64,000 nucleotides of DNA from a virus (lineage: Duplodnaviria > Heunggongvirae > Uroviricota > Caudoviricetes): the IMG/VR virus record IMGVR_UViG_2713896899_000007, positions 7,041 to 71,040 of that record; one strand, written 5' to 3'. The notes beneath the pieces are model-generated. The model was given only the letters and a program-made list of their open reading frames with translations, did no database searches and was not told the origin of the DNA. The position numbers and the translations under genes were made by a program. Within the stretch, counting starts at the first letter, position 1, and each line of letters starts with the position of its first letter. Positions 17,103 to 37,785 of this stretch are shown here, in pieces.

Positions 17103-18359
17103 CTATCTAGAACCACCAAGAATAACACGGTTTTTGACTGGATACCTACGATGTACTGGATAGCCCAATGCGTCTGCACTATGCTCAATGCCACCTGTCT
17201 TATCCATATCTCGTGTTCCAGGCTTGTAGATGACTTTTTCCAGTGAATCAATCAAATGCTTGCACTTCGGATCGATATACAACCGGATATCTCCAGATGC
17301 GGTCATCAGCATTCGGTTAACAGCATTAACACGATCCGCAATTGGCGGGTGCTTTTTCGAATAATCGACACGTAAGAATCCCTTCTCTTTGAAAATGTCG
17401 ACGTCAGACTCCCCGCGAGCATGTTGGCGATAAGCACCTGCCGGATCTGGAAATACCGTTATCTGTGATTTCCAGCGCCAGAAGCGTCTCTCAAGCTCAT
17501 CACAAACCTCTGCCGTGTTAGAGGAAAAGAGCACCAATTCATCAATTGCCCATAGCTCACCATTTGGCTGAGGTTGCAAAATTACTGAAGACATCGGGTC
17601 AATGTTGAAGTCCTGCCCTACCCATATAGGCAACCGAGGGTTGAACTGAAGCGGTTTTACATGCACGTTACGATCGAACGGGTAGTAAACGCGCCCGGAC
17701 ATGTTCTCAAAGCTCGCCAGGTACTCCTGAGCGAACGATTTCGGGTCCATATCGTTCTTAGCAGCTTCAATTTCCGCCGTAGGTACAAACGGAGAATCGG
17801 CAGTTACAAACTGCCAGCTCTTCCACTGTCCCTTTCTTTGCAGCTCTACGTTCTGGCCTATAGTCCACAGTTTGTGAAATTCCGAGAAGCCTTTTGGCGT
17901 ACCAATGATCAGTGCACCGCCGCGTGTCGATGAAAGAGTAGGTCGTAACACCTTGTACCAGGTGTCAGCCTTCATATCCTGAAATTCATCAAGCACTACA
18001 AAATGCAACGCTACGCCGCGCAGAGTGTCAGGCTTATCAGCACCTTTGAGGGCGATCTCCGAACCGTTCTTCAACACGATTGTCATCGTGGTGTCGTTCT
18101 TTTTCCTAACCCACTTACGAGGCAGAACTTCCTGTAGATCGTCCCACAAAATCTGGCGAGCCATCTGGTAAGTAGGAGCGACATACCAGACTCTTTGCTT
18201 TTTTTCCTTTGCCGCCGCACGAATAATAGTGGAGATCGACAACCGGGATTTTCCCCAGCGTCGACCAGCACAAACAACTTTAAATCGATGCGGAGACTGG
18301 AAGACTTTCATCTGTCCAGAATGCAGTTGCACAAGACTGAGCGAGGACGGGATTGCCAT
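17103..18359 (-). CDS. Terminase large subunit
   Basis: Walker A-like VCAGRRWGKS, Walker B-like FVVLDEF, C-terminal nuclease-like region; follows small terminase. Confidence 0.8.
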   Translation of the reverse strand: MAIPSSLSLVQLHSGQMKVFQSPHRFKVVCAGRRWGKSRLSISTIIRAAAKEKKQRVWYVAPTYQMARQILWDDLQEVLPRKWVRKKNDTTMTIVLKNGSEIALKGADKPDTLRGVALHFVVLDEFQDMKADTWYKVLRPTLSSTRGGALIIGTPKGFSEFHKLWTIGQNVELQRKGQWKSWQFVTADSPFVPTAEIEAAKNDMDPKSFAQEYLASFENMSGRVYYPFDRNVHVKPLQFNPRLPIWVGQDFNIDPMSSVILQPQPNGELWAIDELVLFSSNTAEVCDELERRFWRWKSQITVFPDPAGAYRQHARGESDVDIFKEKGFLRVDYSKKHPPIADRVNAVNRMLMTASGDIRLYIDPKCKHLIDSLEKVIYKPGTRDMDKTGGIEHSADALGYPVHRRYPVKNRVILGGSR

Positions 18360-18991
18360 TATTCGTCCTCCCCTTCACTTCCATCATCTGTCGCATCAAA
18401 TTCGCTTAGAGCTTCTTCTTCCAACGTCTCAAGCAATTCGTCATCGATGATTTCAGGCTCGTCGTCTTCCTGACGTAATTTCGCCACCTGGGAAGGCGTA
18501 AGCTCACCAAATACCAGGTTCGGAATTTCTTCCTCGTCATTTTCAGCATGATCCATGCCCAATGCTTTGGACGAAACTTCAAAGCATTTTGCAAGGGTAT
18601 TACTGGCTCTCTGTAAGCTCTTGAGAGAATCCTCAATCGCCCCTAAAGGCTTACCATCACGTTTGGCCGTAGTGACTTCGACCATCACCATCTGCCCCAA
18701 CGCATACGCCCAGCCGTCATAACGTGTACGACGTTCTTCTATCTTTTCCGCACGGGCTTTAGCGCGAAGCTCTGCGTCAGATTTAAGAGACTCACGAACC
18801 ATCTTCCCAACAGAGTCCGCGCCTTTCTCTAATCCTCGCTTTTTGAAATGTCTGGAGAGTGTTTCACGACGAATGCCGTACTCTTCCTCCAGCTTTGAGA
18901 GTGTATATTCGCCTGACGTCCATTTGGCTTCAGCTTCGGCCCACTCCGCTGGTGTCAGGCGAGTTTTTACCTCGTCTTTTTCGACCGTCAT
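18359..18991 (-). CDS. Terminase small subunit (putative)
   Basis: 210 aa, N-terminal HTH-like segment, very acidic C-terminus, first gene of late operon; ATG at 18989-18991. Confidence 0.55.
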   Translation of the reverse strand: MTVEKDEVKTRLTPAEWAEAEAKWTSGEYTLSKLEEEYGIRRETLSRHFKKRGLEKGADSVGKMVRESLKSDAELRAKARAEKIEERRTRYDGWAYALGQMVMVEVTTAKRDGKPLGAIEDSLKSLQRASNTLAKCFEVSSKALGMDHAENDEEEIPNLVFGELTPSQVAKLRQEDDEPEIIDDELLETLEEEALSEFDATDDGSEGEDE

Positions 18992-20354: not shown

Positions 20355-21016
20355 GAATGGACCTCATCGTGACTACCATTGTGATATTCCACCTTCACGC
20401 GTTCTTTGTAGTGCTTGGTGATCTGCATATCCGGGCGCAGCGCGTTCTTCAGGTCTTCGTGAGTCGTCGCCACCATTACCGTCGCACCAACCTTTCGAGC
20501 GGCACGCTGGAGGTTAGACGCCACAACCTGAGCGGTTACACGGTCGAGAACAGCGCCGAACTCGTCAGCAGCCCACACTTTAGCGTCTGACTCAATCAGT
20601 TTGGCAATCTTGAGACGATATTTCTGGCCGTCTGACATTTCAGAAGGCTTGCGAACAAACAGATATGCATCGTTCAGACCAGCCATAGATAACAACCCAA
20701 GCGCATCACTGGTCGTTTTGCCCAACTGATCGATGACGTTAACCTCATTATCGAAGGTAAAATCATCGATGGAGGCTACAGACAGCCCTTCATCCTTCAT
20801 CTGTCGTTGCAACTCGCGCAGCACAACGGATTTGCCGGAACCGGATTGGCCGGTGATGTACACCACATCGCCCTGCTTCACTTCCAGCTCCAGATTGTCG
20901 TAAAGCGTCCACTCTTTTTCGTCCAGGCCAAGCCCGAACGACTCAGCGATTTCCAATGTGCGCGTGGTTTTATTTACGCGTGTCTGAAACGATACGTTGA
21001 TGATGTATTTGCTCAT
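20351..21016 (-). CDS. Soluble ABC-type ATPase
   Basis: Walker A GQSGSGKS, ABC signature-like SDGQKYRL, Walker B VWAADEF, H-loop TTHE; no transmembrane domain; stop overlaps GNAT start. Confidence 0.65.
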   Translation of the reverse strand: MSKYIINVSFQTRVNKTTRTLEIAESFGLGLDEKEWTLYDNLELEVKQGDVVYITGQSGSGKSVVLRELQRQMKDEGLSVASIDDFTFDNEVNVIDQLGKTTSDALGLLSMAGLNDAYLFVRKPSEMSDGQKYRLKIAKLIESDAKVWAADEFGAVLDRVTAQVVASNLQRAARKVGATVMVATTHEDLKNALRPDMQITKHYKERVKVEYHNGSHDEVHS

Positions 21017-21681
21017 GCAGCCATCTCCCCGGAAGAGATCTTCTCCGCATATGCCACAAATGCGTCTACCCCGCTTTCTCCCGTCATTTCTTCCATGTGG
21101 GCAAGCAAATCACCAACAACAATGGCAGAGCCAGCAGGGAGCGTTTTAAAGCCCAATACGTCGACAACACGTACTTCTTCCGCTGCAACTTCACGACTGA
21201 TCTCGGTGTGTTCATCCTTCTGTCGTTTAGTTTCTTCGCCAAGATCGATAACTAGCGAGTCGGTGTCCATTTCTTCTGTCATACTGCCAACGAGAACATT
21301 CAACTCACGCTCTTCAAAGCCGAAAACCTCGATATCGTCCAGAACAAGCGACTCAAGCTCTTTCTGTAGCTTAATTGCATCGTAATCAATGCTGGCAAGT
21401 CGGTTATCTTCAAGGCGCTTCGCACGAACCTCGTCATCACTGAGATCATCGCGAACAATAACCGGTACGCGCTCAAGTCCAGCAAAAATTGCAGCCTCAC
21501 GGCGGCCGTGGCCAGTAATAATTACGTCGTTCTTATCGACCGTAATTGGCTGGTCAAATCCGCGCTTTTTAATGGCTGCGGCTAGATCTCGGATCTGCTG
21601 TTCATCATGCTTTTTGGCATTCATCTCATAGGGAATAAGATCTGCCGGGTCGCGATATACGATTTCAAACTTTTTGGTCAT
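21013..21681 (-). CDS. ParB/Srx-fold nuclease-domain protein 1
   Basis: ParB box-like ITGHGRREAAIFAGLERVPV; start set to ATG 21679-21681 (MTKKFEIVYR), which overlaps the stop of the upstream paralog. Confidence 0.6.
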   Translation of the reverse strand: MTKKFEIVYRDPADLIPYEMNAKKHDEQQIRDLAAAIKKRGFDQPITVDKNDVIITGHGRREAAIFAGLERVPVIVRDDLSDDEVRAKRLEDNRLASIDYDAIKLQKELESLVLDDIEVFGFEERELNVLVGSMTEEMDTDSLVIDLGEETKRQKDEHTEISREVAAEEVRVVDVLGFKTLPAGSAIVVGDLLAHMEEMTGESGVDAFVAYAEKISSGEMAA

Positions 21682-22361
21682 TACATACGCTCCTTGTAGT
21701 AGTCGACCAGCCACACCAGAGCCTCACCAGCGTTCTCCATTTCATTACCGGTGTTAATAGCCTGCTCTTTGATGATGTTTTTTATGGTTTCTGCAACACG
21801 ATCTGACGCATCGAAAGTTACTTTGAAGCGCATGGTCTGATGTTCCGCACCCACACGTTCGGTTTTCTCCCGTTTGTCGGTATCGACAGGCTCATCACTA
21901 CCACGAGACAACGCCTCCAGTGCTTCAAGGTCGATTGCCGCCTCTTTTGCTAAAACCATCGAGATTTCGTCGTCATACGGGGCGATTTCAGACAGTTGAT
22001 AGTCAAGTTCTGACTGAATTTCTTCAATGAAGCGTTGCAATGCGATTTGGTCGTCTTCACCGTATCGCTCGTTGTCCACCAGTGACATCTGTTTTGCCAC
22101 GACATCGCTAATTTTGCCCACAGAAAGCACCGGAACCGTTGAAATTCCTTGCTCAATAGCAGCACGCCAGCGATGTTCGCCGCCGAGGATTTCAAAAAAT
22201 CCATCTTCAAGTTCACGAGCCAAAATTGGCTTAAAAAAGCCCAATTTTTCGATAGAACCTTTCAGTTTTTCAAAATTCTGCGCACCAACCGAATTGGTGT
22301 TCCAGGTATTCGGGCGAAGGTTGGCAACATCAACCTGCAAAATCGTGATTTTTACATCCAT
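21681..22361 (-). CDS. ParB/Srx-fold nuclease-domain protein 2
   Basis: ILGGEHRWRAAIEQGISTVPVL ParB box; track start at 22379 is a GTG, the ATG at 22359-22361 is preferred. Confidence 0.55.
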   Translation of the reverse strand: MDVKITILQVDVANLRPNTWNTNSVGAQNFEKLKGSIEKLGFFKPILARELEDGFFEILGGEHRWRAAIEQGISTVPVLSVGKISDVVAKQMSLVDNERYGEDDQIALQRFIEEIQSELDYQLSEIAPYDDEISMVLAKEAAIDLEALEALSRGSDEPVDTDKREKTERVGAEHQTMRFKVTFDASDRVAETIKNIIKEQAINTGNEMENAGEALVWLVDYYKERM

Positions 22362-25550: not shown

Positions 25551-26165
25551 TTGGATTATCATGATATGAAAATGAAAATTTCGTTACTCCTTGCTTGTAT
25601 ATGCCTCCCGGCGTTTTCCGCCAACGCATTATCAGATTTCGTCTCTGACATGCAAAAAACGTACAGCATGTTTACCTCCGAAGACGTAGTAGAATACAAA
25701 TCACGAGGTCTGAATCAGCCAGTTTGGTTCAGATTCTCAGACAACGCAGAAGAAACAATACTTAATGGAGGAAAAGAAAGATTACGGTTGCAAATTAACG
25801 GGACCGCTGTACCAGAAAACGTTAATGTAAACTCTGACGAAGCCATGAAGCCATCTGGAATTGTTTTAGAAGTTCAAGACGGCACACTTTACTGTGATGA
25901 AATGGCTACAACAGGTTGCCAAGTAAACATTAGGGTTGGCAATGAAGAGCCTATCGTTACTTACGCCAAGGCTGAAGGGAATACAAGTGGAAAGGTATTG
26001 TTTATCGATGAAAATATCTCAAAACGTATCGTTCGTGACATACAGAAAACAGCTAACTCTAAATCCGTCGATAAAAAAATCTATGTTGAGGTTCCCTTCT
26101 TTGTCGTTGGTAACAAAGAATTTAAATTTGGGTTGCTGAAAACACCTCTAAGAGTATCAGAATGA
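25551..26165 (+). CDS. Secreted/periplasmic protein of unknown function
   Basis: Signal-peptide-like MKMKISLLLACICLPAFSANA (probable start 25566); two Cys in mature part. Confidence 0.5.
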   Translation: MDYHDMKMKISLLLACICLPAFSANALSDFVSDMQKTYSMFTSEDVVEYKSRGLNQPVWFRFSDNAEETILNGGKERLRLQINGTAVPENVNVNSDEAMKPSGIVLEVQDGTLYCDEMATTGCQVNIRVGNEEPIVTYAKAEGNTSGKVLFIDENISKRIVRDIQKTANSKSVDKKIYVEVPFFVVGNKEFKFGLLKTPLRVSE

Positions 26166-26686
26166 GAACATTGGACATCACCTACGGCATACCGGCTGAA
26201 GTCTGGCCGCGAGACTACGAACATGCTGAAAACATACTTATGTTCTGGCGGAAGAACAACATTCCTGTAAGAGTCACGCTTGAAGACGGTCAGGTGTTTT
26301 GCATGTACGTTCAGGGGACAATGCCTTCCCGCAATAAGCTAGATTTATGCCCGCTTCCATATGATAAAGAAAATCGTATAAGACTCCCACTTGAGCGCAT
26401 TAGCACAATTGAATCAGGTGTAATCGATGGCATTGCTCGCGAGTTCAAAGGTAGGCTAACAATACATCCAGACTATGTTGACAATCAGCCATCACGCCGT
26501 GACTTTTTTGCGATATGTCGCAAGGCTTATCAAAACGACCAATCTATAAGGGTCTACATGGCAGACGGTCGTGAAATTGAAGGGGTGTCAAGAGGCGTTG
26601 ATGCTTGCCAGGTCACTCTTAAGTTAGAAGACGGCAGAAAAATACTTGTTTTCTTCGATTGGGTTGAACGAATCCTTCCATTTTAA
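26162..26686 (+). CDS. Hypothetical protein with internal duplicated segment
   Basis: Repeated VRVTLEDGQVFCMYVQG / IRVYMADGREIEG / VTLKLEDGRKILVFF units; ATGA overlap with upstream gene. Confidence 0.45.
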   Translation: MRTLDITYGIPAEVWPRDYEHAENILMFWRKNNIPVRVTLEDGQVFCMYVQGTMPSRNKLDLCPLPYDKENRIRLPLERISTIESGVIDGIAREFKGRLTIHPDYVDNQPSRRDFFAICRKAYQNDQSIRVYMADGREIEGVSRGVDACQVTLKLEDGRKILVFFDWVERILPF

Positions 26687-26906: not shown

Positions 26907-26981
26907 TGAACTCGTCGAAAGCGAGCTGGCTAACGACAGTAAAAAATAAATTCATTTTAATTTTTCGTAAGGATGTCCATC

Positions 26982-27632
26982 ATGGCTAACATTATCATTT
27001 CTAAAAAATCCATCATTGAAGCTGCTTCCATTGTATCCGATGAACTGCGCGAAAAAGCAGATCTGGCAACTCAAACATATAACGAACATTATAAAAATGG
27101 TACGCACACTAAAGCAGACAAAGCAAATATGCAAGCTGCGACCACTAAACTTGCTTACTTCATCAACAACGTCGTAAACGCAGTAGAAGACGAAAAATTA
27201 TGCTCTGTTTTCTACTATGCGATTAAAGCAAGCAAACAAGCGCCAGAAGTATTTTTCCGTGATGCTATGACTAATAGTTATTCACTGGAAAAACTGGTTT
27301 ATCTGGTTAAATCCATTAAAGCTGGTAAATGCGTTTATTCCGTCGCTGATATGTCAGGATCTCGTGTATTCGCTTTAATCGATATGATTAACGACGAGAT
27401 CGACACGTTCACCAATGGCGCTGTTTTCGATTTAATGAATGAAGCTAAAAAAGCGTGCGAAATTAAATTGGACGCTGGCTATACTCAAGCCAACCAGTTG
27501 ATCAATCTTTGCGAACGTCTCGGACTTGTTGAAAAAGTCAAAGGAGCTGGGAGCGCCAAAGCTGGTACGCAGCAATATCGCTTCATTAAAAATGATTTCT
27601 ACAATTATTTAGCTGATGCTTTTAAAGCGTAA
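26982..27632 (+). CDS. Hypothetical protein (AT-rich island)
   Basis: RBS AAGGA 9 bp upstream of ATG 26982; preceded by sigma70-like promoter at 26879-26906. Confidence 0.5.
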   Translation: MANIIISKKSIIEAASIVSDELREKADLATQTYNEHYKNGTHTKADKANMQAATTKLAYFINNVVNAVEDEKLCSVFYYAIKASKQAPEVFFRDAMTNSYSLEKLVYLVKSIKAGKCVYSVADMSGSRVFALIDMINDEIDTFTNGAVFDLMNEAKKACEIKLDAGYTQANQLINLCERLGLVEKVKGAGSAKAGTQQYRFIKNDFYNYLADAFKA

Positions 27633-28140: not shown

Positions 28141-28165
28141 AGCGCCCACTATGGGCGCTTTTTTC
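28141..28165 (+). terminator. Rho-independent terminator closing the AT-rich island
   Basis: AGCGCCCACTATGGGCGCT followed by TTTTT. Confidence 0.7.
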
Positions 28166-28187
28166 GTTTACAATACACCCACCATAA

Positions 28188-28210
28188 CGCGCCAATAATG
28201 GCGCTTTTTT
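28188..28210 (+). terminator. Second stacked rho-independent terminator
   Basis: GCGCCAATAATGGCGC followed by TTTTTT. Confidence 0.65.
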
Positions 28211-28623
28211 ATTGTCTTTAACTCACTCCAACAACATAAAAATAAGCGCCAAAATAACGCCATAGACGCGCTTTTATATCCTTGTCAGTACATACCCATT
28301 ACTTAACACATTAACGCGCTTAAAATGCGTTATATTGCGCTATAACGTATGGCTAATCATTAATTTTTATTCTTGCTATGTGATCCGCGTTTAATTGTCG
28401 GCGCGGATCGGCATTTTGTTTTGTTCCGTATCCGCTCGCGTATTATGTGCGCGTGATTTTTCACATAATCACACCACTTAATCACGTATGTGATTATGCT
28501 ACGAAAGAAATCTGGATGTCTCAGGCGACGAAAGTCATCATAATTTTCCCCGCTCACCTGTCCGACAACCGCTGGTTGGATTCCACCAGCTTCCCGATGT
28601 TTTTTCTACATAAAGGCGAATGC

Positions 28624-28745
28624 AGCCGTTTCCCGAAAAAATCCTGGCCGTTTCCCGTCGGCTCATGAATGCGTTCCTTGCCGTTTCTGAAAATTTCCCT
28701 GCGGCAGCTGGTGGCTATAGAGAAAGGGCCGTTTCTGGCCCTCTT
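28624..28745. repeat. Array of GCCGTTTCCC/GCCGTTTCT repeats (4 copies) plus CCCTGCGGC-TATAGAGAAA box
   Basis: GCAGCCGTTTCCCGAAAAAATCC, GGCCGTTTCCCGTCGG, TGCCGTTTCTGAAAAT, GGGCCGTTTCTGGCCC. Confidence 0.6.
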
Positions 28746-28750
28746 CTCAG

Positions 28751-29233
28751 TTACACGCCATCAAGGATGTGGATGCGGTTGCTTGCGTATACATTCAGCA
28801 TAAAGTTAGCGCAAAACAGTTTCCATGTATCAACGCCAGCGGTATACGTAATGTTTTTGCATTTAATTGCATTGTTGGCGATCTGCGTAGCCAGTGATAT
28901 GGCTTCATGGTCAGTAAAGCCGTATGACGTTTGGGTCTTCATCCAGACAGAAATCTGCGTAGCGAACTCAATCAGCTTGGACTGGCAGAATCGCCCGGAG
29001 CGCACCGGAAAGACGAACGTTCCGAATCCAGAATTTACCACATACGCTTTCTCAAATACCCGAGAGTAACGACGATTGCCAATGATGTCGCGTGCAATAA
29101 TGCATTTTTCTTGTTCTGACAGTTCTACCGTCTCATTGTGACGCCAGGCACCAAGTACTCGTTTTTCAATGTCAGAGAACGTTACAGCGATATTGCCATG
29201 TGCGGGTGCGTTTACAGTAGCGATAAAATTCAT
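28751..29233 (-). CDS. Hypothetical early protein
   Basis: 160-aa ORF preceded by conserved leader motif at 29253-29275. Confidence 0.45.
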   Translation of the reverse strand: MNFIATVNAPAHGNIAVTFSDIEKRVLGAWRHNETVELSEQEKCIIARDIIGNRRYSRVFEKAYVVNSGFGTFVFPVRSGRFCQSKLIEFATQISVWMKTQTSYGFTDHEAISLATQIANNAIKCKNITYTAGVDTWKLFCANFMLNVYASNRIHILDGV

Positions 29234-29438
29234 GATTAATTCCTTATCGTAAATAACAAATTGTTTTCTTGTTGGCGTTAATTATCGTTGTACGAATAAG
29301 GCGTCAAAGTGGAAAGTTGCGGTAGCCGGACGGGAACAGGTGGGTTTGTCGGTTGCCTGGAGGTAAGAGGTTGGTGTTTTTAGCCTGCGGGGAACAGGAT
29401 GGTCATTTAAGGCCACCAGCGTTAACTGGTGGCGTTTG

Positions 29439-30137
29439 TCATGCTGGAATCATATCTAATTGAAAAGATTCCATTATATATGTTGGTTCATCGATGTAGT
29501 CCTTCAGCCTATTGTCAAATGACTCAAGCGGATTGTATGGCGGATGATGCCGCTCCGAGTATTCATTTAAAAGATGCCCCATTATCAGTTCGATACCCAT
29601 CTCTACTCCTGAAACTCCGAACCATACATTGTGCGTTAGTTGCTGGGCGTCTGTATCCAGTACGCGAACGCCATCAACAAGATTTATTAGATTCCTGTGG
29701 TTTTCGTGTACTGTAACCTCTCCGCTGGTTAAGTCTATTTCAGCGAGAAAATATGGTCTTTTGCTTCCGTCGGACTTTTTGAAATGACCGTCATAAGCGA
29801 TAGCAAACCACGCTTTACTAAAGTCCTTGTTGGCGTAAGTGGTGCACATACAACTAGGATAATCATCAATGTTAAACCAATCAGGAAACGGATCATCTTT
29901 AGACGAGCCAGCAAAATCATCAGCTAGTTCGTAGCTAATGTCTGGGTTGTACTTGCTGACAAAATCATCTACATCCTCTACATCCTCAACACCTTTCCAA
30001 ACTTTACATCTCTCCGACCAAAAGAATCTCGCAATATCCGAAATGACTGGGAAACGTTTTTCAATTGAATTTATCAACTCTGCATGTTCTTTAAGAGATT
30101 TACGCTTGTTGATAAGCTTCTGAAGATGCGTACTCAT
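29439..30137 (-). CDS. Hypothetical early protein
   Basis: 232-aa ORF; conserved promoter motif plus GATAAT at 30150-30211 upstream. Confidence 0.45.
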   Translation of the reverse strand: MSTHLQKLINKRKSLKEHAELINSIEKRFPVISDIARFFWSERCKVWKGVEDVEDVDDFVSKYNPDISYELADDFAGSSKDDPFPDWFNIDDYPSCMCTTYANKDFSKAWFAIAYDGHFKKSDGSKRPYFLAEIDLTSGEVTVHENHRNLINLVDGVRVLDTDAQQLTHNVWFGVSGVEMGIELIMGHLLNEYSERHHPPYNPLESFDNRLKDYIDEPTYIMESFQLDMIPA

Positions 30138-30188
30138 TTTTAATTCCTCGTTTGTTTTTGATGTGATAATTATCGCAGTCAGATTAAG

Positions 30189-30211
30189 GCAGAAAACAAA
30201 TTGTTATCGGG
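30189..30211 (-). promoter_or_regulatory. Early promoter/operator motif instance
   Basis: GCAGAAAACAAATTGTTATCGGG, with GATAAT-like hexamer downstream in the transcription direction. Confidence 0.45.
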
Positions 30212-30251
30212 CATAAGAAAATGGCGCGGTTTACGCGCCATTTAAAGAGGA

Positions 30252-30647
30252 TTAAGCGAATACGCTTTCAGGGATTAAGGTGTCAGCAGGAATGCCGGAG
30301 GTAATACGCAGACCGTACTGACCAATCCAGGTGGTGCTGGTGTTCAGGCTGGAGGTGAATACGGAATTAACCATATTCATCATGGTTTCAAACACCTCTT
30401 CATCAACCTGGCGGAAGTAGTTCTCGATTTTCAGCAGCAGCGGGTCAGTTGCATCGAGAATGGACTGGTATTGCGTCGCGTACTCGCCGCCGGAGGCATC
30501 ACCTTTACGCACGATCGTACTGGCCTGTACTTCGGCACCAGTTTCGGTGTTGTACGTAACAACGGTGATTTTTGCCACATTCTTACCTTCGGCGGTTTCA
30601 GAGGCATAGTAAACATCAACTGTCAGTTTTTCGCGTTTAACGGTCAT
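30252..30647 (-). CDS. Hypothetical early protein
   Basis: 131-aa ORF following terminator 30712-30739. Confidence 0.45.
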   Translation of the reverse strand: MTVKREKLTVDVYYASETAEGKNVAKITVVTYNTETGAEVQASTIVRKGDASGGEYATQYQSILDATDPLLLKIENYFRQVDEEVFETMMNMVNSVFTSSLNTSTTWIGQYGLRITSGIPADTLIPESVFA

Positions 30648-30711
30648 TTCACTCTCCGTAGTGTCTTGGTTATTTTTCTATTTTATAGCCGTAAGTATGT
30701 ACTTACAATAC

Positions 30712-30739
30712 AAAAAAGCCCCGTAAGGATGGCGGGGCT
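30712..30739 (-). terminator. Rho-independent terminator after gene 30774..31085
   Basis: minus-strand GCCCCGCCATCCTTACGGGGC followed by U6. Confidence 0.6.
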
Positions 30740-30773
30740 GTCGTACTGTCGACTAATTACCACTTGCACATTA

Positions 30774-31085
30774 TCAGGCTATTGCCATCACTGATGCTCT
30801 CTGAATTTCTTGTTGGGCCACGCGGTTAACTTCCATCAAAGCCAGTTCGAGCTGATGTTCCGGCCACATTCTTTGAAATGCCACCCAGCCTTTTCCACGC
30901 TGGCGACGAACATTCATTACATAACGAGTAAAGGTGTTTTTATCGAAAGACACCGCTGTTTCACGGAACAGACGAATAGAGGTTCCATTGGCAACGATGT
31001 CCAGCAAAGTTAATTGAGCAACTAGCGCAGGCTTCTCTTTTCGCTTCTGGTCTTTGTCCAGACCAAGAACCAATGATTTTTTCAT
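30774..31085 (-). CDS. Hypothetical early protein
   Basis: Start moved to ATG 31083-31085 (MKKSLVL) so the gene follows leader motif 31095-31120 and an ACGGAG RBS. Confidence 0.4.
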   Translation of the reverse strand: MKKSLVLGLDKDQKRKEKPALVAQLTLLDIVANGTSIRLFRETAVSFDKNTFTRYVMNVRRQRGKGWVAFQRMWPEHQLELALMEVNRVAQQEIQRASVMAIA

Positions 31086-31238
31086 CACAACTCCGTAAAC
31101 AACTTGTTTTCTCAATGGCGTAAATAATACCAGTAAGAAAACGGCTACAAAGCATAATGATCAGGTGCATGATCGATATGCAGGTTCCTCCCTGCGGCTA
31201 TAGAGAAATTAAGCCAGCATTGCTGGCTTTGGTTGAGG

Positions 31239-31568
31239 TTACGCGAATACTTCAAGAAACTCCTGAACGTCCCAATGCTGGACAAGGTGAAGATAGACCT
31301 TAGAAATCACGTCATTCTCGCTATCGCATGTGAAGTAGTACTTCTGGCTGCGGTTGTATGTGTCCACACAAAATTCGCTCATATCCATAAAGTCAGCATC
31401 TTCTCCCATGTCGCAAATCATCAAAGCAGGTGCGTCATCACGAGTCATCAGCTCAAGCACCCACCGCGAATTGATCAGAGTGGAAGACCAACCTTCCAGC
31501 TCACAGAACTGGTCAAACTCTTTTTGAGTCAATTTCTTAATTTGGTTGATGTCGATATGTGCAAACAT
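31239..31568 (-). CDS. Hypothetical early protein
   Basis: Start set to ATG 31566-31568 (MFAHID) with AAGGA RBS; the track start ATG lies inside the promoter motif. Confidence 0.4.
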   Translation of the reverse strand: MFAHIDINQIKKLTQKEFDQFCELEGWSSTLINSRWVLELMTRDDAPALMICDMGEDADFMDMSEFCVDTYNRSQKYYFTCDSENDVISKVYLHLVQHWDVQEFLEVFA

Positions 31569-31580
31569 AAAGCAATCCTT

Positions 31581-31614
31581 AAACAACATGTTTTCTTATT
31601 GGTGTTATTATCGC
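31581..31614 (-). promoter_or_regulatory. Early promoter/leader motif instance
   Basis: minus-strand GCGATAATAACACCAATAAGAAAACATGTTGTTT then AAGGA RBS. Confidence 0.45.
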
Positions 31615-31926
31615 AATAACGCACAGGCGAAAAAGGATTTTATTCCGGTGAATGTGGTTTTGGCAGTGAGTTTTCAGGTTCAGTACCGAGTACACTTTTT
31701 ACATTATTCTGATTTAGTGGCCGAAGATGGCTGGTGGGCAGAATAATCCTCTCCCCGAAAACCTACTGAAATCGATTGTGACCCGCTGGCTGTCTGGCAC
31801 AATTACGCTGTAGCTGGGCATTCAGAGGGAATCCAGCGGTAAGTTCGCCTGCACGTGAGCGCCTCTCTTCTTACCGCACATTACAGGTGGGTAGCCGCAA
31901 CTCTCCCTCACGCTATACCGGTACGC

Positions 31927-32060
31927 CACCGTTCCTGAACCGGCATCGAGCCTTTTCCCGAAATCCACACAGGCAACTCTACCGTTTCCCTGAAAATCCC
32001 CAGCCGTTCCCCGAAGGCAACCCAGCCGTTTCTGTAGCGGGATGCAGCCTTTCCCTGTAT
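31927..32060. repeat. Second array of CCGTTTCCC-type repeats (6 copies)
   Basis: ACCGTTCCTGAA, GCCTTTTCCCGAAATCC, ACCGTTTCCCTGAAAATCC, AGCCGTTCCCCGAAGG, AGCCGTTTCTG, AGCCTTTCCCTG. Confidence 0.6.
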
Positions 32061-32169
32061 GGACCGAAGGCTGACCGTAGGGGTGTTACGGGGGATAAAA
32101 TCAGGAGTTGAATAAATACGAAAAAGGAGGCGACACCCCTACTTCCCTCTCCACTTATACATACCAGGC

Positions 32170-32950
32170 TTCTTCGCTATACATGTTGTGTTTTCTTCGT
32201 GTTTTATCTGTCTCAACCTCTCTATAGGCGTTAATGCTCACTCCTACCAGAACGTTCTATACGGCGACTATTTCTGTTGGTGGATTAGGTGTGTTGTTTT
32301 CTCTGTCGGTGTATGTGGTTTCGTTCGTTTTGCGGTGGTTCTTCTATGGGGTGTTCTCGTCGTTTTGGTGATTGTTCTTCTCCGTATATGGAGTAATGGC
32401 AGGTGGGCGATTGCTTTCGTTATTGTGTTTGAGTTGTTTGTCTGGAGTGTGTGAAAGGCTTTTGTAGTTATTCGTGTATTGGGTAATGGCGTTTCCCGTG
32501 ATTGTTATGTTTCGTGTCTTTTGGGATTGAGAGAAACCTTGCGGTTACAGGCTTCGTTGGGGTTTCAGTGATTCTGGTGTTTCTTCGCTGTTTGGGGAAT
32601 GGCGTGTCGTGGGTATCGCGCGTGTGAATGTTTTCGGATTGCCTGTGAAAGTTAGGTTGGTTATCCGGTAGCCTGGGAAGAAGAGGTGGGTCTTTTCGGT
32701 AGCCTGCCATAAAGAGGTTGGTTGTTTTTGGGAATGGCATGTGTGTTATTTAGTTGTTTTGTTATGCCTGAAAATAAGTTGTTTATATGGTTGTGTAACG
32801 CAACGGGAGCGATTTTGAGCGTGTGTTTTTGTTGGTAGTGTGTTGAGTCGTCTGTGGTGAAAATTGGACGCTGTGGAGCTGTCTGCTGCGTAGGATTACG
32901 GGTATAAGAAGTGATGTGTGAAAACGTCAATTTTTTAGACCAAATCGGGA
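32170..32950. other. ORF-poor, strongly G+T-skewed repeat-rich region (candidate origin, centromere-like site or noncoding RNA locus)
   Basis: Top strand about 80-85 percent G+T in spot counts; at least 10 same-orientation GTTGTTTT(C) half-sites; four GGnAATGGC repeats at about 100-bp spacing (about 32395, 32485, 32598, 32730); only low-complexity ORFs. Confidence 0.5.
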
Positions 32951-33136
32951 GAAAGCGTTGATGTTTCGTTGATCTGTTATTTAGTTGTTTTCTTATTGGT
33001 ATAAACAACTGTAACCTATTGATATTTAAGGATGTGATTGCAGGCATGGAAGGGGAGTAGTGGCGATCAACGGATTCTTATAGAAAAGAATCAAATTGTG
33101 ACCGCCATTATCAACGGTTTGAATATGTTTGCAGAT

Positions 33137-33445
33137 TTACCAGTTCCAGCACTCAAGCCCTTCAACGACCGGCGCACCACAATCAAAATGTACAGAGTCA
33201 AAGCCTACATCAAGTACTTTCTGAATGTTAGCAATCGCGCCTTCGGATATACCATATCGACGCAAGTCGTCTTTCCAGACATCATCCTGTAACCCGGCGT
33301 GGACAATACAACCGCCATCAATTTGTGAAACCCAATCCAGCTCATTGCTTGCGATCATGAATCGGCGAGCATCTTCCTCTGATGTATGAGATGAACTGAT
33401 CAATGCCACCTGGTAGGCTTGGGTAATGTTCAACATTTCAACCAC
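33137..33445 (-). CDS. Hypothetical early protein
   Basis: 102-aa ORF; upstream both motif variants and a GATAAT hexamer (33448-33510). Confidence 0.4.
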   Translation of the reverse strand: MVEMLNITQAYQVALISSSHTSEEDARRFMIASNELDWVSQIDGGCIVHAGLQDDVWKDDLRRYGISEGAIANIQKVLDVGFDSVHFDCGAPVVEGLECWNW

Positions 33446-33496
33446 TCCAAAACAAGTTGTTTTCTTATGTGGCTTATTATCTCTAACAACAAAAGG

Positions 33497-34366: not shown

Positions 34367-34506
34367 CAGAAAACAAATTGTTTTAGGGGCTGAGTAAATC
34401 AGAAGGGATTGCGTCTATATGAAAATGCCCAGCAATACGCTGGGCATTGTGAAGAATGGTTGTTTAGTTACTTAACTTGGTGGCCTGGTTTAGCACCAGC
34501 ATCCGG
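34367..34506. repeat. metG 3'-end repeat copy 2 (authentic metG terminus and terminator)
   Basis: Direct repeat of 33497-33636, offset 870 bp. Confidence 0.8.
34420..34448 (-). terminator. metG rho-independent terminator (within repeat copy 2)
   Basis: AATGCCCAGC...GCTGGGCATT stem followed by UUUU on minus strand, 20 bp after metG stop. Confidence 0.6.
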
Positions 34507-36501
34507 GCTTAACAGGAAGATATCTTTCCCGCCGGGGCCAGCAGCCATCACCATGCCTTCGGAGATACCGAAGCGCATTTTACGCGGAGCCAGGTTAGCC
34601 ACCATAATTGTGTGACGACCAATCAGTGCCTGTGGGTCTGGATAAGCAGAACGGATGCCTGAGAAGACATTACGCTTTTCACCACCGAGATCCAGTGTCA
34701 GGCGCAACAGTTTGTCAGAACCTTCAACAAACTCCGCGTTTTCAATCAGCGCCACACGCAGGTCAACTTTGGCGAAGTCGTCAAAGGTGATGGTTTCCTG
34801 AATCGGGTCGTCAGCCAGTGGGCCAGTAACTGGCGCGGCAGTAGCTTTCACTTCTTCTTTGGATGCTTCCACCAGTGCTTCCACCTGTTTCATATCGATA
34901 CGGTTATACAGTGCCTTGAACGGATTCACTTTATGGCCCAGCAGCGGTTGCTGGATACCATCCCAGGTCAGTTCTGTATTCAGGAATGCTTCTGCACGTT
35001 CAGTCAGTTTCGGCAGTACCGGTTTCAGATACGTCATCAGCACGCGGAACAGGTTAATGCCCATAGAGCAAATCGCCTGCAGATCTGCATCGCGACCTTC
35101 CTGCTTCGCCACCACCCACGGAGCCTGTTCATCGACATAGCGGTTAGCCAGGTCAGCCAATGCCATGATTTCACGGATAGCTTTACCAAATTCGCGGCTT
35201 TCCCATGCTTCGCCAATCACTTCAGCGGCATCAGTAAAGGTTTTGTACAGTTGCGGGTCAGCCAGTTCGCTTGCCAGCACGCCGTCAAAACGCTTGTTGA
35301 TAAAGCCTGCATTACGGGAGGCCAGGTTAACCACTTTGTTAACAATATCGGCATTCACTCGCTGAACGAAATCCTCCAGGTTGAGATCGATATCATCAAT
35401 GCGCGAAGAGAGTTTCGCAGTGTAGTAGTAACGCAGGCTGTCAGCGTCAAAATGATTCAGCCAGGTGCTGGCTTTAATAAAGGTGCCGCGAGACTTGGAC
35501 ATCTTCGCACCGTTCACCGTCACATAGCCATGAACAAACAGGTTGGTCGGCTTGCGGAAGTTGCTGCCTTCCAGCATGGCAGGCCAGAACAGACTGTGGA
35601 AGTAAACGATATCTTTACCGATGAAGTGGTACAGCTCGGCGGTGGAGTCTTTCTTCCAGTATTCATCGAAGCTGGTGGTATCGCCGCGCTTGTCGCACAG
35701 ATTCTTGAAGGAACCCATGTAGCCAATCGGTGCGTCCAGCCAGACGTAGAAATATTTACCCGGCGCGTTCGGAATTTCAAAACCGAAGTAAGGTGCGTCG
35801 CGGGAGATATCCCACTGTTGCAGACCAGATTCAAACCACTCCTGCATTTTGTTTGCCACCTGCTCCTGCAACGCACCGCTGCGGGTCCATGCCTGCAACA
35901 TTTCGCTGAAAGAGGGCAGATCAAAGAAGAAGTGTTCAGAATCACGCATTACCGGGGTAGCACCAGAAACCACCGATTTCGGCTCGATCAGTTCAGTCGG
36001 GCTGTAGGTCGCGCCACAAACTTCACAGTTATCGCCGTATTGATCTGGCGCTTTACATTTCGGGCAGGTGCCTTTCACAAAACGATCCGGCAGGAACATG
36101 CCTTTTTCCGGGTCGTACAACTGAGAGATAGTGCGGTTTTTAATAAAACCGTTCTCTTTCAGGCGAGTATAAATAAGCTCAGACAGCTGGCGGTTCTCTT
36201 CGCTGTGCGTCGAGTGATAGTTGTCATAGCTGATGTTAAAGCCTGCGAAATCAGTCTGGTGTTCCTGACTCATTTCGCCAATCATCTGCTCCGGTGTGAT
36301 ACCAAGTTGCTGTGCTTTCAGCATGATCGGCGTACCGTGGGCATCGTCGGCACAGATGAAATTAACCTCGTGGCCGCGCATTCGCTGGTAACGAACCCAG
36401 ACATCAGCCTGGATGTGCTCCAGCATATGGCCGAGGTGGATTGAGCCGTTAGCGTACGGCAGCGCGCACGTCACCAGAATTTTCTTCGCGACTTGGGTCA
36501 T
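34468..36501 (-). CDS. metG: Methionine--tRNA ligase
   Basis: 677 aa from ATG 36499-36501 ([26 protein letters not shown]...KMSKS...[10 protein letters not shown]); near-identical to E. coli MetG over full length as I recall it; the track ORF is extended upstream. Confidence 0.95.
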
Positions 36502-36658
36502 AGTAGGCATTACTTCTTTGTAGTGAAAAGGGGCTTGATAGTAACAAAATGGCCTTATGTCTGCCATGTGATAACAGCATTTCTCATAAATGATTAAATG
36601 TCGTAGCTGGAGTACACTACAAGGCGACAATTGCGCAAATTAAAATAAAGGAGACGGG

Positions 36659-37759
36659 ATGAGCGAGTCCAAATCGCCGGATGCCCTGAGAGCAATGGTA
36701 GCCGGTACGCTGGCTAATTTTCAGCACCCAACCCTGAAACACAACCTGACTACGCTTAAAGCGTTACACCATGTTGCGTTGATGGATGACACACTGCATG
36801 TCGAACTAATCATGCCTTTCGTGTGGAATAAGCCTTTTGAAGACCTGAAAGAGCAATGTAGTGGTGATCTGCTCCGTATCACTGGCGCAAAGGCTATTGA
36901 CTGGAAGCTGTCGTACAACATTGCCACGCTTAAGCGCGTCAAAAACCAACCAGGCATTAATGGTGTTAAGAATATTATCGCCGTAAGCTCAGGCAAGGGC
37001 GGTGTAGGCAAATCGTCCACAGCAGTAAACTTGGCACTGGCGTTGGCTGCTGAAGGTGCGAAAGTTGGTATTTTGGATGCCGATATCTACGGGCCATCAA
37101 TACCAACCATGCTGGGCGCGGAAAACCAACGTCCAACCTCACCGGACGGTACTCACATGGCACCTATCATGTCTCATGGCCTGGCAACCAATTCAATTGG
37201 CTATCTGGTCACCGACGACAATGCAATGGTGTGGCGTGGACCGATGGCCAGCAAGGCGCTGATGCAGATGTTGCAGGAAACACTGTGGCCTGATCTGGAC
37301 TATCTCGTTCTCGATATGCCGCCGGGCACTGGTGATATTCAGTTGACGCTGGCGCAGAACATTCCTGTAACTGGTGCGGTTGTGGTAACTACGCCGCAAG
37401 ACATCGCGCTGATCGATGCGAAGAAAGGCATTGTGATGTTCGAAAAAGTCGAAGTGCCAGTACTGGGTATCGTTGAAAACATGAGTGTGCATATTTGCAG
37501 TAACTGCGGTCATCACGAGCCAATTTTTGGCACCGGTGGCGCACAGAAACTGGCCGAGAAATACAACACGCAGTTGTTAGGCCAAATGCCACTTCATATC
37601 TCTCTTCGTGAAGATCTGGATAACGGAACACCAACCGTTATTAGTCGTCCAGATAGTGAATTTACGGCTATTTATCGTGACCTCGCAGATCGCGTTGCTG
37701 CCCAAATGTATTGGCAAGGTGAAGTAATACCTGGCGAAATCGCATTCCGCGCAGTGTGA
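36659..37759 (+). CDS. apbC: Fe-S cluster carrier ATPase Mrp/ApbC
   Basis: 366 aa, SGKGGVGKS P-loop, CxxC motif; near-identical to E. coli Mrp; divergent from metG as in Escherichia chromosomes. Confidence 0.95.
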   Translation: MSESKSPDALRAMVAGTLANFQHPTLKHNLTTLKALHHVALMDDTLHVELIMPFVWNKPFEDLKEQCSGDLLRITGAKAIDWKLSYNIATLKRVKNQPGINGVKNIIAVSSGKGGVGKSSTAVNLALALAAEGAKVGILDADIYGPSIPTMLGAENQRPTSPDGTHMAPIMSHGLATNSIGYLVTDDNAMVWRGPMASKALMQMLQETLWPDLDYLVLDMPPGTGDIQLTLAQNIPVTGAVVVTTPQDIALIDAKKGIVMFEKVEVPVLGIVENMSVHICSNCGHHEPIFGTGGAQKLAEKYNTQLLGQMPLHISLREDLDNGTPTVISRPDSEFTAIYRDLADRVAAQMYWQGEVIPGEIAFRAV

Positions 37760-37764
37760 TAAAA

Positions 37765-37785
37765 AGGTGGTGCATTGCACCACCT
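37765..37785. terminator. Bidirectional hairpin between apbC and the UmuD'-like gene
   Basis: Perfect 9-bp stem AGGTGGTGC/GCACCACCT with 3-nt loop; A5 tract on plus side gives U5 for the minus-strand transcript. Confidence 0.55.

What the first reader, a model, noticed from the sequence alone, without database searches (positions are those of the whole stretch)
28624..32060. Two arrays of a CCGTTTCCC-type repeat with an associated CCCTGCGGC-TATAGAGAAA box
Four copies at 28624-28745 and six at 31927-32060 of (G/A)CCGTTTCC(C/T)(G)AAAA-like units, each array next to a shared box (28694-28727, 31190-31208) and a terminator hairpin. The second array directly abuts the G+T-skewed region. These look like clustered protein-binding sites (iterons, parS-like or terminase-binding sites) rather than coding sequence.
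Basis: seen in the sequence. Interest (0 to 1): 0.4.

Follow-up and report, generated by a model that had tools for sequence, protein, structure and literature searches.

The report
Phased repeat arrays in SSU5-type phage-plasmid
Two non-coding clusters of an 11-base motif (AGCCGTTTCCC), spaced about every two or three turns of the DNA helix, are conserved in all SSU5/pHCM2-type phage-plasmids of enterobacteria; they look like docking sites for an unidentified phage protein, are not the plasmid's known replication repeats, and have not been described before.

Summary
The window is an SSU5/pHCM2-type phage-plasmid of E. coli, 99.3% identical to p009_B. Both arrays are real. Ten of 25 matches to CCKTTYCY in 64 kb fall in them, all on the + strand, in clusters of 4 and 6 against at most 2 in simulations. 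They are the only two arrays in the 110-kb genome.

The 11-bp cores and their spacing (22, 31-34, 44 bp, close to multiples of 11) are conserved from E. coli to Salmonella, Enterobacter, Cronobacter and Klebsiella. The spacers and the 1.5-4 kb gene cassette between the arrays vary.

They are not coding and not structured RNA. They are not RepA iterons, because two different RepA replicons carry the same arrays. They lie 40 kb from the par operon and 10 kb from terminase.

The 'box' is not an independent element. Its CCCTGCGGC half is a variant repeat unit. Its TATAGAGAAA half is a terminator tail found only in the E. coli lineage. The second copy lies 720 bp from array 2.

Best reading: iteron-type DNA sites for an unidentified phage protein, probably part of a lytic-origin or control region next to a 1.2-kb conserved, strand-skewed non-coding block. 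The main rival is RNA sites for the neighbouring Hfq-like FljA homologue. Function remains unproven.

The parts
28624..28634 (+). array 1, unit a1 core AGCCGTTTCCC (followed by GAAAAAA)
   Evidence: invariant in 18 non-redundant relatives
28646..28656 (+). array 1, unit a2 core GGCCGTTTCCC, 22 bp after a1
28679..28689 (+). array 1, unit a3 core TGCCGTTTCTG, 33 bp after a2
   Evidence: the same sequence is unit 3 of array 2 in Salmonella, Enterobacter and Klebsiella relatives
28714..28748 (-). Terminator of gene 28751-29233. Stem 28726-30/28737-41, loop GTTTCT. The loop and stem edge carry unit a4 (GGCCGTTTCTG, 28727-28737). The T-tract TTTCTCTATA (28716-28725 on the minus strand) is the second half of the 'box'.
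   Evidence: the stem covaries (GGGCC/GGCCC, GGGGC/GCCCC, AGCG/CGCT) while the loop CGTTTCC is kept
31183..31208 (+). Solitary degenerate unit plus box copy (GGTTCCTCCCTGCGGC-TATAGAGAAA). It lies beside the minus-strand terminator 31211-31229 of gene 31239-31589. E. coli lineage only.
31911..31919 (+). CGCTATACC, a CTCT(A/G)TAC-type box 7-8 nt before array 2. Related boxes precede array 1 in relatives and recur at 32256-32262.
31927..32056 (+). Array 2: six cores (31927-37 CACCGTTCCTG, 31949-59 AGCCTTTTCCC, 31980-90 TACCGTTTCCC, 32002-12 AGCCGTTCCCC, 32024-34 AGCCGTTTCTG, 32046-56 AGCCTTTCCCT). Spacing 22, 31, 22, 22, 22.
32057..32200 (+). Conserved spacer block between array 2 and the skewed region: GTTACGGGGGAT..TTGAAT..TACG..GCGA.CCCCT, a polypyrimidine run, then CTTATAC.
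   Evidence: invariant columns
32200..33125 (.). Context: conserved G+T-skewed non-coding block with internal repeats and operator-bearing promoters on both strands. Array 2 forms its left edge.
26162..26686 (+). Context and candidate partner for the RNA rival only: FljA-family protein with a tandem Sm/Hfq-like fold.

Best explanation
MECHANISM PROPOSED. The two arrays are iteron-type arrays of binding sites on duplex DNA for one sequence-specific protein of the phage, not yet identified. Monomers would bind head-to-tail to the 11-bp core RGCC(G/T)TT(T/C)C(C/T)C. The cores sit on one face of the helix, every two turns (22 bp) or three turns (31-34 bp), so a polar nucleoprotein complex forms.

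ROLE OF EACH ARRAY. Array 2 (six sites) is the left edge of a 1.2-kb conserved non-coding block with extreme strand asymmetry and repressor-type operators. I take this block as the cis-acting control region of the phage's own (lytic) replication. Array 1 (three to five sites, 1.5-4 kb away, same orientation) would be an auxiliary site that communicates with array 2 by looping. This is how P4 crr works with P4 ori, and how the distant iterons of R6K and P1 incA work.

SHOWN: the repeats, their clustering, strand polarity, phasing, deep conservation and uniqueness in the genome; that they are non-coding; that they lack RNA structure; that they are independent of RepA, par and terminase.

INFERRED: that a protein binds them, that binding is to DNA rather than RNA, the origin function, and the looping.
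For: CLUSTERING far above chance, with a single orientation. There are only two arrays in 110 kb.

CONSERVATION. The cores are invariant while the spacers diverge across five genera.

SPACING over 39 non-redundant arrays: 22 bp (71 times), 21/23/24 (5), 31 (10), 33-34 (15), 44 (2), 55 (1). These are close to multiples of 11. A 9-nt deletion in Klebsiella turns a 31-bp spacing into 22 bp.

NO STABLE RNA FOLD on either strand in three lineages (z between -1.5 and +0.95). There is no consensus structure for array 2 and no Rfam hit.

CONTEXT OF ARRAY 2. It is contiguous with a non-coding block conserved at 65-74% in 835 plasmids. That block has GC skew +0.45 and operator-bearing promoters like those of the neighbouring repressor-type genes.

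THE PHAGE HAS ITS OWN REPLISOME and T4-like helpers (DnaB-like helicase, primase, Pol III alpha, RNase H, UvsW, UvsY, gp32-like), but no lytic origin is annotated.

ARRAYS ARE INDEPENDENT OF THE PLASMID REPLICON, which has been swapped between otherwise 96%-identical genomes.
Against: No binding protein was identified.

No initiator gene is adjacent. The two genes always found between the arrays gave no recognisable DNA-binding fold: the phrog_5125 model is a 4-strand sheet plus a helix, and phrog_1641 was not modelled.

There is no clear AT-rich unwinding element or DnaA box.

The genome-wide GC skew is transcription-driven and shows no origin signature.

One unit sits in a terminator loop whose stem covaries. 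An Hfq-like RNA-binding protein is encoded 2 kb away. Both facts fit an RNA reading equally well.

The phasing counts are not phylogenetically independent. The a3-a4 spacing of 48 bp is off-phase.
Confidence: 0.35

Rival explanations
1. RNA-level sites. The arrays are transcribed and act as multi-site, unstructured RNA targets or sponges for the phage's FljA-family protein (26162-26686). That protein is a tandem Sm/Hfq-like RNA binder. The arrangement would be analogous to FljA on the fliC leader, or to CsrB/CrcZ-type multi-site RNAs.
For: The FljA-like protein belongs to PF03614 (E 5e-81). Its model has two helix + 5-strand Sm domains that match Hfq (TM-score on the target 0.7-0.84, rmsd 1.1-1.5 A).

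The gene is kept in Klebsiella phage-plasmids although that host lacks flagellin (my own knowledge of K. pneumoniae; gene presence). This argues for a target inside the phage.

All units share one strand and are unstructured.

Unit a4 is displayed in a hairpin loop with a covarying stem.

The minus strand of unit a2 shares the 12-mer TGAGCCGACGGG with the E. coli fliC 5'UTR. This is the best leader match in the whole window.

The array 2 region is weakly transcribed in Cyrano lysogens, about 14 against a background of 5 (PMC9928086, S1 table).
Against: The 12-mer has blastn E = 0.2 against the window, and 11-mers occur elsewhere. It is confined to the E. coli lineage.

No credible sigma-70 promoter drives either array. 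Array 1 lies behind terminators in both directions.

Spacing in multiples of about 11 has no rationale for RNA.

FljA and the arrays co-occur in 59/60 and 61/61 loci, but that is only synteny within one family.

G.U pairs in the a2 mini-hairpin favour the + strand, while the fliC similarity is on the minus strand.
Confidence: 0.2
2. Transcriptional control or boundary elements. A phage DNA-binding regulator coats the arrays. It would act as a polar roadblock, silencer or insulator at the two ends of the variable early-gene cassette (28751-31589). This would keep the convergent + operon and the leftward genes apart, or co-regulate the cassette.
For: The arrays bracket a cassette whose content and length vary (1.5-4.2 kb), while the arrays themselves stay fixed.

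Array 1 lies exactly at the convergent junction of the + operon and the minus-strand genes, next to several terminators.

The sites are phased and in a single orientation.
Against: Every cassette gene already has its own promoter, palindromic operator and terminator. No regulator is known. A boundary role does not explain why array 2 is welded to a 1.2-kb conserved non-coding block.
Confidence: 0.2
3. Centromere-like (parS-type) sites for plasmid partition. They would be bound by the partner of the ParA ATPase or by the two ParB_N-domain proteins (21013-22361), and dispersed as in phage N15.
For: Direct-repeat arrays in pairs are typical of RHH-type centromeres (R1 parC, pB171 parC1/parC2; my own knowledge). 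No repeat array lies upstream of parA. Two ParB_N proteins are encoded 6-7 kb to the left.
Against: The parA operon is about 40 kb away and is followed by a perfect 18-bp inverted repeat (a 57-bp palindrome), which is a better centromere candidate. The motif is not palindromic, as HTH-ParB sites are. The ParB_N genes sit beside terminase, not beside the arrays.
Confidence: 0.08
4. Packaging recognition sites (pac/cosB-like) bound by the small terminase.
For: Small terminases bind arrays of direct repeats (lambda cosB, SPP1 pacL/pacR; my own knowledge).
Against: The arrays are 10-13 kb from terS/terL (17103-18991), with a ParB-like cluster and a whole operon in between. Two arrays 3 kb apart that flank variable genes are not a known pac layout.
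Confidence: 0.03

Closest known systems
Iterons of theta-replicating plasmids and phage-plasmids (P1 incC/incA, F ori2/incC, RepFIB, R6K gamma ori)
   Same: Tandem head-to-tail repeats with a conserved core and a variable spacer. The period is about 22 bp, so sites share one helix face. A main array is paired with a second array a few kb away.
   Different: No rep gene lies between or beside the arrays. The genome's real RepA iterons are elsewhere and unrelated in sequence. There are no DnaA boxes or AT-rich 13-mers.
Satellite phage P4 ori / crr
   Same: Two separate clusters of one short repeat in the same genome, kilobases apart. Both serve one replication protein, and the distance between them is flexible.
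   Different: The P4 repeat is an octamer (TGTTCACC) bound by the alpha primase-helicase. No alpha homologue or binding data exist here. This comparison rests on my memory of the P4 literature and was not tested.
R-loop or transcription-activated lytic origins (T4 oriF/oriG/oriE, ColE1, herpesvirus oriLyt)
   Same: A repeat cluster sits next to a transcribed non-coding stretch with strong G skew. The phage encodes UvsW, RNase H, UvsY and a gp32-like protein, as T4 does.
   Different: No mapped promoter reads in the G-rich sense. No experimental origin data exist. The skewed block is not transcribed in lysogens.
Multi-site protein-binding RNAs (CsrB/RsmZ, CrcZ, TRAP leader) and the FljA-fliC leader interaction
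   Same: Many copies of a short single-stranded motif on one strand. An Sm/Hfq-like RNA-binding protein is encoded nearby.
   Different: No promoter or terminator frames array 2. The motif is neither GGA, ARN nor UAG. The spacing is helical rather than arbitrary.

Membership tests
Plasmid Rep iterons (RepA/RepFIB-type origin) | Tandem direct repeats of 17-22 bp with about 21-22 bp phasing | tested here: met
   Spacing of 22 bp in 71 of 109 intervals; 11-bp core and 11-bp spacer
Plasmid Rep iterons (RepA/RepFIB-type origin) | Cognate rep gene adjacent to or flanked by the repeats, and the repeats co-vary with the Rep type | tested here: not met
   RepA (CYRAN_63) is about 33 kb away with its own iterons. 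p009_B and Cyrano have different RepA iterons but the same arrays.
Plasmid Rep iterons (RepA/RepFIB-type origin) | AT-rich unwinding element and DnaA boxes next to the repeats | tested here: inconclusive
   Only a 7/9 DnaA-like match inside a spacer, not conserved. GC content next to the array is 0.42-0.52.
parS / plasmid centromere | Located within or beside the par operon | tested here: not met
   The parA operon is at Cyrano 29307-31134, about 40 kb from the arrays. A 57-bp palindrome lies just downstream of it.
parS / plasmid centromere | Inverted-repeat site for HTH-ParB, or arrays of direct repeats for RHH-type binders | tested here: inconclusive
   The units are direct repeats, not palindromes. 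This is compatible only with the RHH-type class.
pac / cos terminase recognition site | Lies in or next to the small-terminase gene; genome termini map there | tested here: not met
   terS/terL are at 17103-18991, 10 kb away. Termini cannot be tested with these tools.
Structured non-coding RNA | Fold more stable than shuffled sequence, and covariation-supported helices | tested here: not met
   z between -1.55 and +0.95 on both strands in three lineages. RNAalifold gives -5 kcal/mol with 8 pairs for array 2. No Rfam match. Only the terminator hairpin at a4 is real.
Protein-coding sequence | Open frame conserved between relatives | tested here: not met
   Array lengths are 164/165/166/142/169/146/144/112 nt in relatives, including a 1-nt indel between 96%-identical genomes. 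No frame is kept.
Multi-site protein-binding RNA (CsrB/CrcZ-like; FljA target) | Own promoter and terminator; repeated single-stranded motif matching the known site of the binding protein | tested here: inconclusive
   The repeated unstructured motif is present. There is no sigma-70 promoter. The similarity to the fliC leader is weak (E 0.2). The FljA binding site is not defined in the papers I could read.
P4 ori/crr-type two-site origin | Two clusters of one repeat, both bound by the replication initiator | not testable with these tools
   The two-cluster layout is present. Binding cannot be tested.

The most novel reading that the evidence does not exclude
The arrays, the 1.2-kb strand-skewed conserved non-coding block and the tandem-Sm (Hfq-like) FljA homologue form one previously unrecognised module of SSU5-type phage-plasmids. 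It could take either of two forms. (a) A dedicated RNA-protein regulatory system in which a phage Hfq-like protein is titrated or guided by its own multi-site RNA. (b) An iteron-plus-R-loop lytic origin of a type not described in enterobacterial phages.
Probability: 0.2. Interest if true: 0.75.

Novelty: new member of a known kind. Interest (0 to 1): 0.45.

Why it matters
SSU5/pHCM2-type phage-plasmids are common in clinical E. coli, Salmonella (including Typhi), Klebsiella, Enterobacter and Cronobacter. More than 800 plasmid records carry this region.

How they switch from plasmid maintenance to lytic replication is unknown, and no lytic origin or cis-regulatory site has been mapped.

These arrays and the adjoining block are the most conserved non-coding DNA found in this part of the genome. 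They are unannotated, or mis-annotated as ORFs in phage Cyrano.

They give a precise, testable target: 11-bp cores that can be mutated, and a bait for DNA or RNA pull-downs. They also mark the fixed borders of a hypervariable accessory-gene cassette.

Tried and rejected
NO RESULT
- Rfam at E<=1 over 27-35 kb and a tRNA scan found nothing relevant.
- Pfam, PHROGs, NCBIfam and PADLOC on 20 neighbouring proteins gave only FljA (PF03614), ParB_N, ABC_tran and DUF5983.
- PDB sequence searches for phrog_1641, phrog_5125 and a phrog_1513 profile gave nothing.
- The AF2 model of phrog_5125 has no DNA-binding fold.
- Literature searches on SSU5/pHCM2 origins, iterons and sRNAs found nothing on this region.

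REJECTED
- Structured RNA: fold z-scores and RNAalifold do not support it.
- RepA iterons. The TCTCTATAG box matches the first half of Cyrano's RepA iteron (CTCTCTATAGTGGATA). The window's own plasmid has a different RepA and iteron yet keeps the box, so I treat the match as coincidence.
- parS next to parA: no array there, only a palindrome downstream.
- sigma-70 or sigma-S promoter reading of the CTCTATAC boxes: there is no T at position -7, and the box is not found upstream of other genes.
- boxA/nut-like and RfaH-ops-like resemblances (CGCTCT.., CGGTAGCCTG): each is short and not conserved in all lineages. Noted only.

UNINFORMATIVE OR DEAD END
- Cumulative GC skew for an origin signal is monotonic and transcription-driven.
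- The genome-contig scan for three phased CCGTTTCC copies returned only low-complexity tandem and coding repeats from unrelated phyla.
- The viral-contig scan returned only SSU5-type elements plus chance hits.
- FljA-array co-occurrence is complete, but all loci are one syntenic family.
- The fliC-leader 12-mer is suggestive but E = 0.2.


Full report
WHAT THE WINDOW IS

The 4.2 kb around the finding is 99.3% identical to E. coli plasmid p009_B (NZ_CP048306.1). It is 93-96% identical, over the 82% of the region that matches, to Escherichia phages Cyrano, CMS-2020a and PhiR41_1. The window is therefore an SSU5/pHCM2-type phage-plasmid. Window coordinate equals p009_B coordinate minus 43984.

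Annotation of p009_B and Cyrano gives this layout:
- terminase at 17.1-19.0 kb (minus strand);
- two ParB_N proteins and an ABC ATPase at 19.5-22.4 kb;
- a + strand operon from 22.4 to 28.1 kb, starting with a UvsW-like helicase;
- small minus-strand genes from 28751 to 31589;
- 1.5 kb without a credible gene (31590-33140);
- then more minus-strand genes.

CHECKING THE OBSERVATION

The sequence reads as described. Array 1 holds AGCCGTTTCCC (28624), GGCCGTTTCCC (28646), TGCCGTTTCTG (28679), a variant TTTCCCTGCGGC (28694) and GGCCGTTTCTG (28727). Array 2 holds six units starting at 31927, 31949, 31980, 32002, 32024 and 32046.

With the degenerate core CCKTTYCY the window has 25 hits (14.9 +/- 3.8 expected). 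Ten of them are in the two arrays, all on the + strand. The clusters of 4 and 6 per 150 bp compare with at most 2 in 200 first-order Markov simulations. The 9-mer with one mismatch is not enriched window-wide, so the signal is the clustering. The full 110-kb plasmid contains no other cluster.

The 'box' exists at both places, but its description needs correcting.
- Its first half, (T)TTCCCTGCGGC, is a form of the repeat unit itself. It is unit 3 of array 2 in Salmonella, Enterobacter and Klebsiella, and it occurs twice in array 1 of the distant relative L082.
- Its second half is the T-tract (TTTCTCTATA on the minus strand) that follows minus-strand terminator hairpins. It occurs only in the E. 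coli lineage; relatives have GGACGAAAAGAAA there.
- The second copy (31190-31208) sits 720 bp from array 2, on the far side of gene 31239-31589.

CONSERVATION

Both arrays are present, in the same order and orientation, in every relative examined:
- Salmonella Saintpaul and Typhi pHCM2-type plasmids, Enterobacter and Klebsiella plasmids;
- dozens of IMG/VR contigs;
- an integrated or chromosomal copy at about 70% identity;
- for array 1, the most distant relative found, L082, where no array 2 cluster was detected.

In 18 non-redundant copies of array 1 the stretch GCCGTTTC-CGAAAA is invariant apart from one column that differs in a single sequence, and most of the core of unit a2 (CGTT-CCC) is also invariant. 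In 21 copies of array 2 the cores are at least 90% conserved while the spacers change.

Pooled over 39 arrays, the unit is an 11-bp core (A/G)GCC(G/T)TT(T/C)C(C/T)C followed by a low-information spacer. The start-to-start distances are 22 bp (71 times), 21/23/24 (5), 31 (10), 33-34 (15), 44 (2), 48 (4) and 55 (1). Klebsiella has lost 9 nt from the one long spacer of array 2, which turns 31 into 22.

The distance between the two arrays ranges from 1.5 to 4.2 kb. The genes between them are exchanged. Only the phrog_1641 gene (28751-29233) and the phrog_5125 gene (30774-31085) are always there.

WHAT THE ARRAYS ARE NOT

Not coding. The 22-nt period is not a multiple of three. Array lengths differ by 1, 2, 9, 10 and 22 nt among relatives. 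A 1-nt indel separates the window from Cyrano, whose annotated ORF CYRAN_104 on array 2 is therefore unlikely to be a gene.

Not a known RNA family and not a structured RNA. Minimum free energies of both strands of both arrays in three lineages are indistinguishable from dinucleotide shuffles (z -1.55 to +0.95). RNAalifold finds essentially nothing in array 2. In array 1 it finds only short hairpins with little covariation.

Not the plasmid's Rep iterons. Cyrano's RepA (CYRAN_63) lies about 33 kb away between arrays of CTCTCTATAGTGGATA. p009_B has a different replicon with GTATGCTGYCAGCGGT iterons on both sides of the record origin. The two plasmids share the CCGTTTCCC arrays at 96% identity. 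The overlap of the TCTCTATAG box with the Cyrano iteron is therefore taken as chance.

Probably not the centromere. The parA operon is about 40 kb away and is followed by a perfect 18-bp inverted repeat.

Probably not pac or cos. Terminase is 10 kb away.

CONTEXT OF ARRAY 2

Window 31895-33125 is conserved at 65-74% identity in Salmonella, Enterobacter, Cronobacter and Klebsiella plasmids. It is unannotated or only sporadically annotated there.

After array 2 comes a 100-bp block with long invariant runs. Next is an 800-bp stretch with GC skew about +0.45 and AT skew -0.3 to -0.6. This stretch contains:
- four repeats of about 90-135 nt ending in GGGTAATGGCG;
- two 31-nt CGGTAGCCTG..AAGAGGTGGGT repeats, with three more copies at 29317-29404;
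- copies, on both strands, of the promoter-plus-palindrome (AAACAAnTTGTTT) module that precedes each small minus-strand gene.

Indels in the alignment rule out a conserved ORF.

In published lysogen RNA-seq for Cyrano, the skewed block is at background, the array 2 region is about three-fold above it, and the FljA-like gene is expressed (PMC9928086, S1 table). Strandedness is not stated.

Whole-genome cumulative GC skew simply follows gene orientation and gives no origin signal.

CANDIDATE PARTNERS

The gene at 26162-26686 belongs to the FljA family (PF03614). Its AlphaFold model (pLDDT 83) is two tandem Sm domains that superpose on Hfq. This fits FljA's published post-transcriptional action on fliC mRNA (as cited in PMC2652032).

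The gene is kept in Klebsiella elements. The minus strand of unit a2 shares a 12-mer with the E. coli fliC leader. This is the best leader match in the window, but only E = 0.2, and it is lineage-specific. Co-occurrence of the gene and the arrays is complete but reflects synteny only.

The conserved between-array protein phrog_5125 models as a four-stranded sheet plus a long helix, with no DNA-binding relatives. The other neighbours have no detectable family.

INTERPRETATION

The data fit a phased array of protein-binding sites on duplex DNA, that is, iterons in the broad sense:
- an invariant 11-bp core;
- free spacers;
- a single orientation;
- spacing in near-multiples of 11 bp that is restored after a deletion;
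- no RNA fold and no promoter.

The arrays are independent of the plasmid replicon. The phage has its own helicase, primase and polymerase plus T4-like UvsW, UvsY, gp32 and RNase H. Array 2 is fused to a large conserved, strand-asymmetric, operator-controlled non-coding block.

I therefore rank a lytic-replication control region (a main array plus a looping auxiliary array, as in P4 ori/crr or R6K) first, at about 0.35.

The RNA reading (targets of the Hfq-like FljA homologue) and a transcriptional boundary or regulator reading follow at about 0.2 each. Centromere and pac readings are unlikely. None of these functions is shown. What is shown is the anatomy, the conservation and the exclusions.

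NOVELTY

I found no description of these repeats or of the adjoining block in the searchable literature. In kind they resemble iterons, so I file them as a new member of a known kind. There is roughly a one-in-five chance that, together with the skewed block and the Hfq-like protein, they belong to something less familiar.

Noticed in passing
window 26162-26686 (+): FljA-family 'transcriptional regulator' (PF03614). Its predicted structure is two tandem Sm/Hfq-like domains. It is conserved in all SSU5-type phage-plasmids, including those of non-flagellated Klebsiella, and is expressed in Cyrano lysogens.
   Followed up: partly
window 31895-33125, skew strongest at 32200-33000: About 1.2 kb of non-coding block conserved across five genera, with GC skew about +0.45 and strongly negative AT skew. 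It has four repeats of about 90-135 nt ending in GGGTAATGGCG (32378-32405, 32468-32495, 32581-32608, 32726-32742). No conserved ORF, no Rfam match. At background in lysogen RNA-seq.
   Followed up: partly
window 29317-29404 and 32663-32723 (+ strand as written): A second repeat family of about 30 nt, CGGTAGCCTG..AAGAGGTGGGT. Three copies lie upstream of gene 28751-29233 and two lie inside the skewed block; these two are nearly invariant in relatives. The first 10 nt resemble the RfaH ops element (GGCGGTAGCGTG) with one mismatch. Not tested.
   Followed up: no
window 29249-29283, 30191-30220, 31092-31126, 31576-31610, 32744-32765, 32770-32795, 32973-33007, 33445-33479: A shared promoter/5'-leader module with the palindrome (G)AAAACAAnTTGTTT(A) in front of each small minus-strand gene. 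It also occurs on both strands inside the non-coding block. It looks like the operator of one repressor.
   Followed up: no
L180 10100-12500 (Cyrano 60.1-62.5 kb); L003 1-1700 and L178 10057-10162 (p009_B): The plasmid replicon has been swapped between otherwise 96%-identical phage-plasmids. Cyrano's RepA is flanked by CTCTCTATAGTGGATA iterons. p009_B has GTATGCTGYCAGCGGT iterons (at least 15 copies).
   Followed up: yes
L002 9761-10165 and 10655-11011 (Cyrano CYRAN_104, CYRAN_103): Annotated hypothetical ORFs that lie on array 2 and on the skewed block. Their frames are not preserved in near-identical genomes, so they are probably not genes.
   Followed up: partly
L179 31157-31213 (Cyrano): A perfect 18-bp inverted repeat (57-bp palindrome) just downstream of the parA operon (CYRAN_28-30). 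Candidate centromere or terminator.
   Followed up: no
window 28141-28460: Several terminator-like hairpins stacked in the 600-bp convergent gap before array 1 (28141-28159 bidirectional, 28189-28204, 28381-28410, 28437-28453). The GCGC/ACGT-rich sequence around them is conserved. Possible small RNA(s) or binding sites.
   Followed up: no
window 34468-37765: A divergent metG and apbC/mrp pair, arranged as on the E. coli chromosome. It looks like a captured host locus inside the phage-plasmid.
   Followed up: no
window 28654-28665 (minus strand): The 12-mer TGAGCCGACGGG is identical to part of the E. coli fliC 5'UTR. It is the best leader match in the window, but E = 0.2 and it is present only in the E. 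coli lineage.
   Followed up: yes
window 26973-27632 (+): phrog_1513 protein (219 aa), conserved at 83-86% between E. coli, Salmonella and Enterobacter lineages, which is more than its neighbours. Its C-terminus (LINLCERLGLVEKVKG...QQYRFIKN) looks like a winged helix by eye. No family or PDB match.
   Followed up: partly
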